From NCBI GenBank assembly GCA_963832025.1, contig CAWHSF010000003.1, forward strand, positions 207,665 to 271,664: a stretch of DNA of 64,000 nucleotides, read 5' to 3'. Made by a program: the position numbers and the translations under genes. The stretch is from Candidatus Nomurabacteria bacterium. Its GTDB lineage: Bacteria > Patescibacteriota > Minisyncoccia > Phycocordibacterales > UBA9973. Below the pieces are notes generated by a model, which saw only the letters and a list, made by a program, of their open reading frames with translations, did not search any database and had not been told where the DNA came from. Positions 28,837 through 30,142 of this stretch are shown piece after piece; the first letter of the stretch is position 1, and each line of letters opens with the position of its first letter.

Positions 28837-30142
28837 AAATTAGAAACTTTTAAAAAATTAAAACTGCCAGATAAACCAGGAGTTTATTTTTTTCTTAAGG
28901 GGAAAGAAATTTTATATGTCGGCAAAGCGACTTCTTTGAAAGACAGAGTGAAGAGCTATTTCGGTAAAGATTTAATCGAAGCGAGGGGGCCAATAATTTT
29001 AGACATGGTCTTCAAGGCAAATAAAATAGAATGGCAAACGACTGATAGTGTTTTGGAGGCGCTAATTTTGGAGGCCAACCTAATCAAAAAATATCAACCG
29101 AAACACAACACAGATGGTAAGTCTGATAAAAGTTTTAATTATGTTTGTGTTACAAAAGAAAAACTACCTAAAGTTGTTTTAATTAGAGGAAAGGAACTTT
29201 CCGAAAAGAAGAATTTTGATAGTTCCTCCCTTCTCCGAGTACGGAGTGGGTCCCACACTAGTCAAAATTCTTCTTTTCGGAAAGTTTTCGGGCCTTTTCC
29301 AAACAGTACTCAACTTCGGGAAGCATTAAACATAGTTAGAAAAATATTCCCATTTTTGGATGATAAAAGTAAAAATTATCTTGAATTTTACCGACAGATA
29401 AACTTAGTACCGGATTTAAACGACACAAAACTTTATAAACAAAATATAAAAAATATAATTTTATTTTTTTCTGGCAAGAAGCTACAAATTTTCAGAAATC
29501 TAAAGAAGGAAATGAACACTTATGCCAAGGCTCATGAATTTGAAAAAGCAGGGGAGATAAAAAGACAGCTTTTTACCTTGCAGCATATCAATGATGTGGC
29601 ATTGATAAAAAGTGAAAAGTCTGGGTTAGAAAATTTTTCCGGATTACTCCAGCCTTCGGCCGGAACCTTCCCCGTTCAAAATTTTCTAATCCAGACTTTT
29701 CGCATCGAAGCCTATGACATTGCCCACCTAGGCGGTAAAAACATGGTGGGAGTGATGGTGGTGGTGGAAGACGGGGAAGTAAATAAAAACGAATATAGAA
29801 AATTCAAGAATCAGAACTCAAGATAATTCTAATGATACGGGAGCGCTCACGGAAGTGCTGGAAAGAAGGCTAGCCCATGCGGAATGGCCTTTTCCCTCCC
29901 TCATTGTGGTAGATGGAAGCACGGCGCAGATAAATGCCACAAAAAAAGTTTTATCAAGGGTTCACCTTGATATACAAATAGTTTCAGTTTTAAAAGACGA
30001 ACATCACAAACCAAAAGCTATTATGGGAGATGAAAAAATTGGGCTAAAATATAAGAAAGAAATTTTACTCGCCAACAGCGAAGCGCATAGGTTCGCGATT
30101 ACTTATCATAAAAAGATGCGTAATAAAAACTTTTTAAAATGA
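28834..30142 (+). CDS. uvrC: excinuclease ABC subunit C, interrupted by a +1 frame change near 29806-29811
   Basis: GIY-YIG N-terminus (GVYFF...ILYVGKA); UVR domain (EFEKAGEIKRQL). ORFs 28834-29826 and 29855-30142 join as ...EYRKFKIRTQDNSNDTGALTEVLERRL. Confidence 0.85.
29196..29285 (+). repeat. family B palindrome-ended repeat (90 bp), in-frame inside uvrC
   Basis: 22-bp perfect TIR ACTTTCCGAAAAGAAGAATTTT / AAAATTCTTCTTTTCGGAAAGT; encodes ...SEKKNFDSSSLLRVRSGSHTSQNSSFRK... Confidence 0.8.
29614..29701 (+). repeat. family C palindrome-ended repeat (related to B), in-frame inside uvrC
   Basis: 23-bp TIR GAAAAGTCTGGGTTAGAAAATTT / AAATTTTCTAATCCAGACTTTTC (1 mismatch); encodes EKSGLENFSGLLQPSAGTFPVQNFLIQTF. 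Confidence 0.75.

What the first reader, a model, noticed from the sequence alone, without database searches (positions are those of the whole stretch)
29614..29701. Second hairpin element (family C) in the same uvrC gene
GAAAAGTCTGGGTTAGAAAATTT ... AAATTTTCTAATCCAGACTTTTC are 23-bp arms with one mismatch. They flank a GC-richer core ending in GTTCAAAATT, the same 3' core end as family B (ATTCAAAATT / GTCAAAATT). The element encodes EKSGLENFSGLLQPSAGTFPVQNFLIQTF, immediately before the conserved RIEAYDIAH endonuclease motif. uvrC therefore carries two independent elements plus a frame change.
Basis: seen in the sequence. Interest (0 to 1): 0.7.

Follow-up and report, generated by a model that had tools for sequence, protein, structure and literature searches.

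The report
In-frame hairpin element with host-derived arms
An 88-base hairpin inside the DNA-repair gene uvrC of a tiny uncultured (CPR, Paceibacteria) bacterium is one copy of a small selfish DNA element that sits in-frame inside many housekeeping genes, and whose long stem is built at each site from the host gene's own neighbouring sequence, which classical transposons do not do.

Summary
Window 29614-29701 is a 24-bp-arm hairpin (one mismatch) around a 40-nt, 62% GC core, in-frame in uvrC just before RIEAYD.

It is an insertion. Related UvrC proteins have a hairpin-free 16-19-residue stretch at this site, and others carry at least ten unrelated hairpin inserts there.

The same core occurs in 19 Paceibacteria genome loci, in at least seven different genes. 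It is nearly always in one reading frame (NFSGLLQPSAGTFPVQN), once antisense and twice intergenic.

The key result is that only the core and about 9 nt of AT-rich inner arm are conserved between copies in different genes (identity 0.88 and 0.74). The outer arms are unrelated between copies (0.29, chance level) yet 80% Watson-Crick complementary within each copy, with no G-U excess. In several copies one arm overlaps universally conserved host codons, so the other arm is a templated inverted copy of host flank.

Best reading: a selfish element resembling Rickettsia palindromic elements (RPEs), translated as a disordered linker insert. It is probably copied in by microhomology-primed template switching with snap-back synthesis; that mechanism is inferred, not shown.

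No Rfam, phage, plasmid or literature match was found. I rate it a new variant of a known kind, with high interest.

The parts
29614..29637 (+). 5' arm of the hairpin (GAAAAGTCTGGGTTAGAAAATTTT, encodes EKSGLENF). The outer ~15 nt are copy-specific. The inner ~9 nt (GAAAATTTT) are the semi-conserved AT-rich inner arm or target motif.
   Evidence: Outer-arm identity between copies in different genes is 0.29; inner-arm identity is 0.74.
29638..29677 (+). Conserved family C core, 40 nt, 62% GC. It contains the unpaired motifs ATTAC and AACCTTCC, a 3-bp helix CGG/CCG (29640-29642 with 29672-29674) and an apical stem-loop.
   Evidence: 24 of the 40 core columns are invariant in 25 copies. The CGG/CCG helix is 100% paired and shows covariation.
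29648..29664 (+). Apical 7-bp stem with a 3-nt loop (TCCAGCC TTC GGCCGGA). The window copy has an A-C mismatch at 29651/29661.
   Evidence: Pair 45/53 of alignment A2 occurs as GC 13, CG 7, UA 4, AU 1. Pair 44/54 is A-U in 12 copies and A-C in 13.
29678..29701 (+). 3' arm (AAAATTTTCTAATCCAGACTTTTC, encodes NFLIQTF). Its last bases overlap the conserved Phe-Arg codons that precede IEAYD.
   Evidence: The 3' arm ends at the Phe/Arg codons in all four uvrC lineages that carry family C.
28834..29826 (+). N-terminal 330 codons of uvrC (GIY-YIG domain, UVR motif, start of the RNase H-like endonuclease domain). This is the host gene of the element. It ends at a stop created by a +1 frameshift.
29810..30142 (+). 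Continuation of uvrC in the next frame, after the one extra base at about 29807-29809. It holds the rest of the endonuclease domain.
   Evidence: The corrected product is 436 aa and aligns with orthologs end to end.
29195..29286 (+). Family B hairpin element in the same gene (25-nt perfect arms, 42-nt core). It has the same architecture and the same inner arm GAAGAATTTT.
26509..26600 (+). Family B element in uvrA. In other genomes the same site is occupied by family C or by cluster-4 cores, with orthologous host-derived arms.

Best explanation
SHOWN. The 88-nt hairpin is one copy of a dispersed, non-autonomous repeat (family C) found in Paceibacteria (CPR). It is an insertion in the variable linker between the UVR motif and the RNase H-like endonuclease domain of UvrC. 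It preserves the reading frame and, if translated, adds about 19 residues. The equivalent segment of the orthologue P0002, which carries the same element, is predicted to be disordered. What copies share is only a ~40-nt GC-rich structured core plus about 9 nt of AT-rich inverted repeat (consensus AAGAATTTT / AAAATTCTT). The remaining 12-16 bp of each arm differ at every site but are Watson-Crick complementary within each site. In several copies one arm is native host sequence, so the other arm is an inverted copy of it.

INFERRED (about 0.4). New copies arise by a copy-in process, not by cut-and-paste transposition. A 3' DNA end at an A-rich host sequence such as AAG AAT (Lys-Asn codons) anneals by microhomology to the inner arm of a donor copy. 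It copies the core and the distal inner arm. The nascent strand then folds back on itself and copies about 15-20 nt of its own upstream host sequence (snap-back synthesis). It rejoins the chromosome at a short microhomology. Only in-frame, stop-free products in tolerant linkers survive selection. The long perfect hairpin is therefore a by-product of insertion, not a transposase-binding end.
For: Insertion status. Among 62 distinct uvrC linker sequences, the shortest have 16-19 residues; most of these fold weakly (several above -5 kcal/mol) and none carries a long-armed hairpin. Others carry family C, family B or at least eight other hairpin types. Family C is patchy on a UvrC NJ tree: four separate placements, with sisters that are empty or carry another element.

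Dispersal. There are 19 genome loci and 25 distinct copies. They lie in uvrC, uvrA, dus, leuS, a glcD-like gene, mnmA and one unnamed gene. Twenty of 21 lie in ORFs of at least 150 aa, nearly all in one frame, one is antisense, and two sit between convergent genes, although one of these (L006) is spanned by a 166-aa open frame and so counts among the 20.

Copy-specific arms. Identity between copies in different genes is 0.88 for the core, 0.74 for the inner arm and 0.29-0.30 for the outer arm, which equals the flanks. Complementarity is 0.80 within a copy and 0.29 between copies. In the structure count, 79.5% of cells are paired against 61.4% in shuffles (0/500), and all four pair types occur at the outer-arm columns.

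DNA-level templating. G-U makes up 12 of 89 non-Watson-Crick cells (13%) against 19% expected.

One arm is native.
- uvrA: the 5' arm has the same x-x-[LF]-[GES]-K-x-N pattern as empty alleles; the core plus 3' arm are added before the native KNK(K)RKVMGVEW.
- uvrB: the 3' arm of cluster-5 copies contains the conserved P-D-F-L-T codons (15 nt in L030) and the 5' arm mirrors them.
- uvrC: the 5' arms of L025, L041 and L039 include the conserved I/L-L-K codons.
- mnmA: the 5' arms include the A-K-V codons of ATGHYAKV.

Tolerance. In the AlphaFold model of P0002, which carries the same element, residues 233-266 have pLDDT below 50 and are coil between two folded domains. PDB homology starts directly after the insert.

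Mechanistic precedent. Snap-back synthesis-dependent MMEJ (PMC2943611, PMC5728401), a bacterial group-II-intron-like RT reported to act in MMEJ, found with the search term 'snap-back' (bioRxiv 10.1101/2022.03.14.484287), and quasipalindrome template switching in E. coli (PMC7202029).
Against: No recent filled/empty allele pair with near-identical flanks was found, so the junctions are inferred from orthologs that are 80-92% identical in the flanks. An automated test of where the alignment gap falls was inconclusive. Net insertion lengths (57-75 nt) fit 'core plus one arm', but they fit almost equally well a ~58-66-nt element whose flanks were later converted into arms. No polymerase, reverse transcriptase or transposase is linked to the elements. 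The core is identical, outside a few hypervariable positions, in 17 copies whose hosts are only 65-85% identical in UvrC. That requires recent or recurrent spread, gene conversion, or selection on the core that this model does not explain. Translation of the insert is inferred from frame preservation; there are no expression data. The host uvrC in this window carries a frameshift, so this particular copy may sit in a pseudogene or in an assembly error.
Confidence: 0.65

Rival explanations
1. It is a conventional MITE or RPE-type element of about 58-66 nt (core plus short terminal inverted repeats), moved by an unidentified transposase. In this view the long copy-specific stems arise afterwards. 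Repeated intrastrand template switching (quasipalindrome correction) converts the flanks into a longer palindrome until conserved codons stop it.
For: Net insertion lengths of 57-66 nt at the uvrC sites equal the core plus two inner arms. Stems usually end at or inside conserved codons on one or both sides. A synonymous GAA-to-GAG change in the 5' arm of L004 is matched by a Phe-to-Ser change at the conserved residue in the 3' arm. Quasipalindrome correction is established in E. coli (PMC7202029). A Y1 (IS200-like) transposase gene occurs in 5 of 105 related loci.
Against: Copies whose cores are identical to the consensus already have full-length stems, with a mean of 2.5 mismatches in 21 positions, and arm quality does not correlate with core divergence. 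At the uvrA and uvrB sites the copied arm adds length instead of replacing native sequence: L040 reads KKN|KRKVM while L061 reads KKN[+22 aa]KRAVM. No direct target-site duplication is general. The Y1 gene is not positioned next to the hairpins.
Confidence: 0.2
2. The hairpin is a host-selected functional nucleic-acid structure. It might be an RNase III processing or stability site, a translational pause or bypass signal, or a DNA cruciform recognised by a protein. In this view the arms are kept complementary by compensatory selection.
For: The predicted fold is very stable. The apical stem and the CGG/CCG helix covary. Stem lengths of ~20-25 bp are fairly uniform. The core is more conserved than the flanking coding sequence.
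Against: Close orthologs lack the element or carry unrelated elements at the same site. The same core sits in unrelated genes, in intergenic DNA and once antisense. There is no G-U enrichment in the arms. There is no stop codon or matched take-off/landing codons as in bypassing, and all inserts keep the frame. No Rfam family matched even at E up to 10.
Confidence: 0.08
3. The segment is an ancestral, protein-level functional linker of UvrC and not an insertion. Its palindromic DNA would then be incidental.
For: The reading frame is intact, and the same peptide is present in five UvrC homologs.
Against: Many orthologs lack it. Variation between copies keeps base pairs while changing amino acids: QPSAG, HPSGG, HPSDG, HPPGG. 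The same sequence occurs in six other protein families and between genes. The segment is predicted disordered. Solved UvrC domains start after it.
Confidence: 0.02

Closest known systems
Rickettsia palindromic elements (RPEs)
   Same: Both are short palindromic repeats of several families in a small, AT-rich genome. Both insert in-frame into unrelated housekeeping genes and add a peptide that the protein tolerates (review PMC10969869).
   Different: RPEs are about 100-150 bp and are conserved along their whole length. Here only a ~40-nt core and ~9-nt inner repeats are shared, and the outer stems are derived from the host. The phylum is different (Patescibacteria/CPR). Sequence relatedness to RPEs was not tested.
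Bacterial MITEs, including in-frame cases such as ERIC, Coxiella QMITE1 and Anabaena MITEs
   Same: Both are small, non-autonomous, hairpin-forming and multi-copy, and both sometimes make in-frame fusions (PMC10969869).
   Different: MITEs have element-encoded terminal inverted repeats recognised by a parent IS transposase, and direct target-site duplications. Neither a conserved outer repeat, nor a general direct duplication, nor a parent IS was found here.
REP/REPIN sequences mobilised by RAYT (Y1) transposases, and IS200/IS605-derived PATEs
   Same: In both, a small conserved imperfect hairpin with conserved single-stranded flanks is the unit of recognition. A Y1 transposase-like gene exists in some related genomes.
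   Different: REPs are extragenic, and the RAYT gene is flanked by them. Here the elements are mostly intragenic and the Y1 gene shows no positional link to them. IS200/IS605 insertion creates no inverted copy of the target.
Templated insertions from snap-back, synthesis-dependent MMEJ, and quasipalindrome template switching
   Same: Both involve an inverted copy of adjacent sequence made by a 3' end that folds back and copies its own strand, with junctions at microhomologies (PMC2943611, PMC5728401, PMC7202029).
   Different: Those are sporadic repair scars of a few to tens of nucleotides and have no transmissible core. Here a specific conserved core is propagated to many sites.
Mobile GC clusters, double-hairpin elements and 'byp' elements in AT-rich fungal mitochondrial genomes (from my own knowledge, not checked here)
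   Same: Both are GC-rich hairpin-forming mini-elements in an AT-rich genome, some of them inside protein-coding genes.
   Different: Those occur in organelles. The byp elements are skipped by the ribosome and need not be in-frame. Here all copies preserve the frame.

Membership tests
Rickettsia palindromic elements (RPE) | Multi-copy palindromic repeat inserted in-frame in unrelated protein-coding genes | tested here: met
   25 copies in at least 7 genes; 20 of 21 lie in ORFs of at least 150 aa and are stop-free.
Rickettsia palindromic elements (RPE) | Whole element, including its ends, conserved between copies (about 100-150 bp) | tested here: not met
   The element is 88 nt. Outer-arm identity between copies in different genes is 0.29, which is chance level.
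Rickettsia palindromic elements (RPE) | Sequence homology to RPE-1 to RPE-10 consensus sequences | not tested
   No RPE consensus sequences were available to the tools. There was no hit in Rfam, plasmids or phages.
MITE | Terminal inverted repeats that are part of the element and shared by all copies | tested here: not met
   Only about 9 nt of inner repeat is semi-conserved (0.74). The terminal 12-16 bp are copy-specific.
MITE | Direct target-site duplication of fixed length | tested here: inconclusive
   AAGAAT or AAAAAT is repeated at two uvrA copies. No such repeat is seen at the window uvrC copy or at most others. The AT-rich context makes chance repeats likely.
MITE | Parent autonomous IS with matching ends | tested here: not met
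   In 961 kb of related DNA, family C core motifs were about as frequent (26 and 31 hits) as complete elements (25 copies), and none was seen at the ends of a transposase gene. There were no hits in the viral, plasmid or phage sets. Whole genomes were not searched.
REP/REPIN with RAYT | Extragenic location | tested here: not met
   Families C, B, cluster 2, cluster 4 and cluster 5 are almost entirely inside ORFs. Only cluster 1 is mainly intergenic.
REP/REPIN with RAYT | Y1 (RAYT) gene flanked by the repeats and co-occurring with them | tested here: not met
   A Y1_Tnp homolog occurs in 5 of 105 loci and not in the window. Only one weak cluster-1 hairpin lies nearby, in L042.
Translational bypass elements (T4 gene 60, mitochondrial byps) | Non-coding gap with matched take-off and landing codons, often a stop after take-off, and length not constrained to multiples of three | tested here: not met
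   All 62 uvrC linker variants, and all in-gene copies of five families, are in-frame and stop-free.
Known structured RNAs (introns, ribozymes, riboswitches; Rfam 15) | Match to a curated covariance model | tested here: not met
   Only sub-threshold miRNA-precursor-like hits were found, which reflect a generic hairpin. Nothing reached a gathering score in 26000-31000.
Snap-back / SD-MMEJ templated insertion (a process, not an element family) | Inserted tract is the reverse complement of immediately adjacent sequence | tested here: met
   The arm opposite the native arm is its Watson-Crick complement (0.80). The native arm overlaps conserved codons in uvrB, uvrC, uvrA and mnmA.
Snap-back / SD-MMEJ templated insertion (a process, not an element family) | Junction microhomology and dependence on a break or nick and a low-processivity polymerase | not testable with these tools
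   There are suggestive cases only. For example, GAAAAG mirrored to CTTTTC ends on the native TTT-C of the Phe-Arg codons in uvrC. Confirming this needs fresh insertion junctions or experiments.

The most novel reading that the evidence does not exclude
Paceibacteria may harbour a previously undescribed class of very small mobile elements: GC-rich structured cores of about 40-60 nt, in at least six families. They would have no transposase-binding ends and would spread by hijacking microhomology-primed template switching. Each insertion would build its own 20-25-bp stem as an inverted duplication of the host flank. They have colonised, in-frame, the linkers of many essential proteins (polA, uvrA, uvrB, uvrC, leuS, mnmA, dus). 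They turn over rapidly at hot spots and would be a major source of the length variation seen in CPR proteins.
Probability: 0.4. Interest if true: 0.85.

Novelty: new variant of a known kind. Interest (0 to 1): 0.74.

Why it matters
If the reading is right, it extends 'selfish DNA inside protein-coding genes', known mainly from Rickettsia, to the Candidate Phyla Radiation. These organisms have tiny genomes that are otherwise thought to be poor in mobile DNA.

It also points to a way of spreading that needs no dedicated transposase and leaves an inverted, not a direct, duplication of the target.

Practically, these elements explain many unexplained 20-35-residue inserts and length differences in CPR housekeeping proteins. 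They can confound alignment, phylogeny, gene calling and structure prediction for these lineages. They also provide natural markers of very recent DNA-repair events in uncultured bacteria.

Tried and rejected
1. Peptide searches. A tandem 42-aa peptide found no candidates in the word index. The 31-aa insert gave 0 hits in 1.84 billion representative proteins, because it is too short for significance. Dispersal therefore rests on the DNA pattern scan.

2. Rfam at E up to 10 gave only generic hairpin-like miRNA hits.

3. The family C pattern gave 0 hits in viral contigs. The element gave no match in plasmids or phages.

4. Y1 transposase lead. A homolog occurs in 5 of 105 loci but has no positional link to the hairpins and is absent from the window. 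I dropped it as the mobilising enzyme, though it is not excluded.

5. Automated global alignment of filled against empty alleles, to see which arm is missing, was noisy and undecided (left 0.51, right 0.41). I relied instead on copies whose arm overlaps conserved codons.

6. Core divergence against arm mismatches as an age test gave no correlation (rho 0.16, p 0.43). The test is biased because the search pattern required an exact core.

7. Target being a pre-existing hairpin: rejected. None of the short (empty) uvrC linkers carries a long-armed hairpin; most fold weakly (several above -5 kcal/mol), though a few carry a short hairpin (down to about -15 kcal/mol).

8. Intein, intron and bypass readings: rejected on size, lack of motifs and strict frame preservation.

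9. Four literature searches for a prior description in CPR, Patescibacteria, Parcubacteria or metagenome-assembled genomes found nothing relevant. The library is incomplete.
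Full report
**1. The observation**

Window 29614-29701 is an inverted repeat with 24-nt arms (GAAAAGTCTGGGTTAGAAAATTTT / AAAATTTTCTAATCCAGACTTTTC), one mismatch, and 40 nt between the arms. As RNA it folds at -45.1 kcal/mol (z = -9.2, 0 of 200 shuffles as stable). As DNA it folds at -24.7 kcal/mol (z = -5.9). The 40-nt core is 62% G+C in a region of about 37.5%.

It lies in-frame in the ORF 28834-29826. That ORF has GIY-YIG, UVR and UvrC RNase H-type domains. The hairpin encodes EKSGLENFSGLLQPSAGTFPVQNFLIQTF directly before RIEAYDIAH.

UvrC homologs place the organism in Paceibacteria/Nomurabacteria, which belong to the Candidate Phyla Radiation.

The same gene has a second hairpin at 29195-29286 (family B). 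It also has one extra base at about 29807-29809 that breaks the frame. Removing that base gives a 436-aa UvrC colinear with orthologs.

**2. It is an insertion at a hot spot**

I aligned 37 UvrC homologs. The family C peptide is present in the window protein and in P0002, P0012, P0013 and P0024. Other homologs have unrelated inserts at the same place or only a short linker.

I then collected 62 distinct DNA versions of the segment between HINDVA and EAYD, from the window and about 100 fetched loci.
- The shortest ('empty') versions have 16-19 residues. Most fold weakly (several above -5 kcal/mol) and none carries a long-armed hairpin.
- The longer versions carry family C, family B or at least eight other hairpin types.
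- All are in-frame and stop-free.

On an NJ tree built from 285 gap-poor UvrC columns, the family C carriers fall in four separate places. Their sisters are empty or carry another element (no bootstrap). This implies repeated gain, loss or replacement.

Homology to solved UvrC endonuclease domains (3C65, 2NRT) begins at the residue right after the insert. In an AlphaFold model of P0002, which carries the same element, residues 233-266 are coil with pLDDT below 50, lying between the UVR helices and the endonuclease domain. The element therefore sits in a disordered inter-domain linker.

**3. It is a dispersed family**

The pattern GGATTACTCC-N10-14-GGAACCTTCCCC has 19 hits in one-genome-per-species GTDB contigs. 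By record title, 15 are in Nomurabacteria, Paceibacterota or Minisyncoccia MAGs and four are labelled 'uncultured Candidatus Saccharibacteria'. Several genomes have two or three copies.

Together with the fetched uvrC loci there are 25 distinct copies. They lie in:
- uvrC;
- uvrA;
- a dihydrouridine synthase (dus);
- leuS;
- a FAD-linked oxidase (glcD-like);
- mnmA;
- an unnamed gene;
- two sites between convergent genes.

Twenty of 21 lie in open frames of at least 150 aa. Nearly all use the frame that reads NFSGLLQPSAGTFPVQN. L015 carries the core inverted (NFERGRFHPKDGVIRKN), at the site where L017 and L019 carry it in sense.

Nothing matched in Rfam, viral contigs, plasmids or phages.

**4. 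The arms are not part of the transmitted element**

All 25 copies align without gaps over 100 nt (alignment A2).

| Region | Identity between copies in different genes |
|---|---|
| Core | 0.88 |
| Inner 9 nt of each arm | 0.74-0.75 |
| Outer 14 nt of each arm | 0.29-0.30 |
| Flanking DNA | 0.30-0.31 |

Yet the outer arms are 80% Watson-Crick complementary within a copy, against 29% between copies.

With the structure imposed, 79.5% of cells pair, against 61.4% in shuffles (0 of 500). The covariation score is 0.486, against 0.148 in shuffles and at most 0.22 for slid registers. Outer-arm columns show all four pair types in comparable numbers.

The apical stem also covaries: pair 45/53 is GC 13, CG 7, UA 4, AU 1. 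So does the CGG/CCG helix. These changes alter the encoded amino acids (QPSAG, HPSGG, HPSDG and others), so the constraint acts on the nucleic acid and not on the peptide.

G-U wobbles are not enriched among non-Watson-Crick cells: 12 of 89, against 19% expected. This argues for DNA-templated complementarity over selection on an RNA fold.

**5. The pattern is general in these genomes**

A hairpin survey of 105 sequences (961 kb) found 293 distinct hairpins (305 before removing duplicates), against 115 in shuffled controls. At least six families share the same build: a copy-specific stem of 14-31 bp, an AT-rich inner stem, conserved internal-loop sequence and a variable apical stem.

| Family | Copies in ORFs of at least 150 aa |
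|---|---|
| C | 20 of 21 |
| B | 13 of 13 |
| Cluster 2 | 16 of 16 |
| Cluster 4 | 9 of 9 |
| Cluster 5 | 5 of 5 |
| Cluster 1 | 3 of 16 (mostly intergenic) |

The window itself has five such elements in four neighbouring repair genes: polA, uvrB, uvrA, and uvrC twice. It also has three cluster-1 copies between genes.

**6. One arm is host sequence and the other is its inverted copy**

*uvrA.* Empty alleles read, for example, [19 protein letters not shown] (L040). Filled alleles keep a 5' arm with the same x-x-[LF]-[GES]-K-x-N pattern. They then add a core plus a 3' arm that is the reverse complement of that 5' arm, and then resume KNK(K)RKVMGVEW. This holds whether the core is family C (L022, L007, L018, L025, L002), family B (window, L001) or cluster 4 (L061, L056, L057).

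*uvrB.* The site lies between the conserved SYFP and DFLTIIDESH. The 3' arms of cluster-5 copies contain the conserved Pro-Asp-Phe-Leu-Thr codons: 15 nt in L030, 11 in L032, and 6 in the window and L040. The 5' arms mirror them. Empty alleles have nothing corresponding to the 5' arm.

*uvrC.* The 5' arms of L025, L041 and L039 include the conserved Ile/Leu-Leu-Lys codons of HINDVAxLK. In L068 the 3' arm includes the Arg-Ile codons of RIEAYD.

*mnmA.* The 5' arms include the Ala-Lys-Val codons of ATGHYAKV.

*The window copy.* The 5' arm (SEKSG...) resembles the empty-site linker of L072 (NEKTG...). In all four family-C uvrC lineages the 3' arm ends exactly on the Phe-Arg codons before IEAYD. 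GAAAAG mirrored gives CTTTTC, which overlaps the native TTT-C.

*Net insertion sizes.*

| Site | Net insertion |
|---|---|
| uvrC, family C site | about 57 nt |
| uvrC, family B site | 63 nt |
| uvrA | 60-75 nt |
| uvrB | 93-96 nt |

These are close to the core plus one arm. They do not clearly exclude the core plus two short inner repeats.

**7. Mechanism**

*Shown:* a conserved core, host-derived inverted arms, in-frame survival in linkers, and recurrent occupation of the same sites by different cores.

*Inferred:* copying by template switching. In this model:
1. A 3' end at an A-rich host sequence (AAG AAT or AAA AAT, i.e. Lys-Asn codons, common in these linkers) pairs with the inner repeat of a donor copy.
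2. It copies the core and the distal inner repeat.
3. It snaps back on itself and copies its own upstream sequence.
4. It rejoins at a microhomology.

Such snap-back, synthesis-dependent end joining and quasipalindrome template switching are documented processes (PMC2943611, PMC5728401, PMC7202029; a bacterial RT reported to act in MMEJ, bioRxiv 10.1101/2022.03.14.484287).

Targeting of Lys-Asn codons would also help to explain the single reading frame. Recombination between the arms would explain the one inverted core.

The main rival is a ~58-66-nt MITE whose stems grow afterwards by arm-to-arm conversion. That is disfavoured because copies with unmutated cores already have full stems, and because the second arm adds length at uvrA and uvrB. 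It is not excluded.

A Y1 transposase-like gene occurs in a few related loci but is not linked to the hairpins.

*Unexplained:* the core is nearly invariant in hosts whose UvrC proteins are only 65-85% identical. This needs ongoing spread, gene conversion or selection.

**8. Comparison and novelty**

Functionally the closest known system is the Rickettsia palindromic element: selfish palindromic repeats inserted in-frame into housekeeping genes (PMC10969869).

This element fails the RPE and MITE criterion of element-encoded conserved ends. It fails the REP/RAYT criteria of extragenic location and linkage to the transposase gene.

Four full-text searches for a prior description in CPR, Patescibacteria, Parcubacteria or metagenome-assembled genomes returned nothing relevant. 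The library is incomplete.

I rate it a new variant of a known kind. There is a substantial chance that the mode of insertion is new.

Noticed in passing
window 29800-29830: uvrC is broken by one extra base. The window reads AAATTCAAGAATCAGAAC where orthologs read AAATTCAAAATCAGAAC. The database protein P0001 (330 aa, 100% identical, on a 430-kb contig) carries the same truncation. This is either a real pseudogene or an assembly error.
   Followed up: partly
window 30612-30729; about 32614-32722 (-); about 36567-36649 (+): There are three copies of a mostly intergenic hairpin family (cluster 1, with core ...AATCTATCTGGC..GCCAGCGAAC..CTCGGC..GCCTG(C/T)GCAAG...). It also has copy-specific arms and often lies between convergent genes. 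It has 18 members in related loci, a few of them inside ORFs.
   Followed up: partly
window 20917-21022 (polA, core inverted) and 24733-24836 (uvrB): Two in-frame copies of another family (cluster 5, 62-nt core GCCGTCGTTCGCAC...GAAGACTCCTCT). At the uvrB site the 3' arm contains the conserved Pro-Asp codons and the 5' arm mirrors them.
   Followed up: yes
window 10955-11019 and 28768-28832; also 3530-3607 and 31625-31689: Intergenic hairpins with conserved arms: CCCGTACTAAATTTT...AAAATTTTAGTAC(C/T)GG downstream of dnaN and of uvrA, and TCCC(G/A)TTAGAA...TTCTAACGGGA at the other two sites. This is a different kind of repeat, with conserved arms and AT-rich loops. They may be terminators or promoter-region elements.
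   Followed up: no
window 60927-61258: A perfect 157-nt tandem duplication (2.1 copies, 100% identity) begins inside the 3' end of tRNA-Arg(TCT) (60869-60941). Each unit holds two small hairpins. It could be an integration-site duplication or an assembly artefact.
   Followed up: partly
window 616-6154 and 8286-10939: TraG-like P-loop ATPase and type IV secretion pilin-like genes lie at the start of the window. yidC (-), dnaA (+) and dnaN (+) place the probable replication origin near 7.5-8.3 kb, so uvrB, uvrA and uvrC would be co-oriented with the rightward fork.
   Followed up: no
L001 15510-16190 (-); homologs in L042, L071, L023, L091: A 226-aa IS200-like Y1 transposase (PF01797) gene is present in some related Paceibacteria contigs. 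It is single-copy per locus and is not flanked by the hairpin families.
   Followed up: partly
Alignment A1 (UvrC homologs), columns about 30-80, 165-185, 200-230 and 535-560: UvrC of these bacteria has several further insertion hot spots: after residue ~10, inside the GIY-YIG domain, after FNYVCITK, and near the C-terminus. Short Gly/Pro/Ser/Arg-rich inserts are present in only some orthologs, which suggests the same process acts at many linkers.
   Followed up: no
uvrB and uvrC linkers in related loci (e.g. L018 1788, protein P0025, L004 uvrC family B site): Some 'empty' alleles keep short motifs typical of element ends: QENFS, VQNS (GTTCAAAATTCT in L004), and PHKQNAEAD. These may be remnants of earlier insert-and-delete cycles that gradually lengthen linkers.
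   Followed up: no
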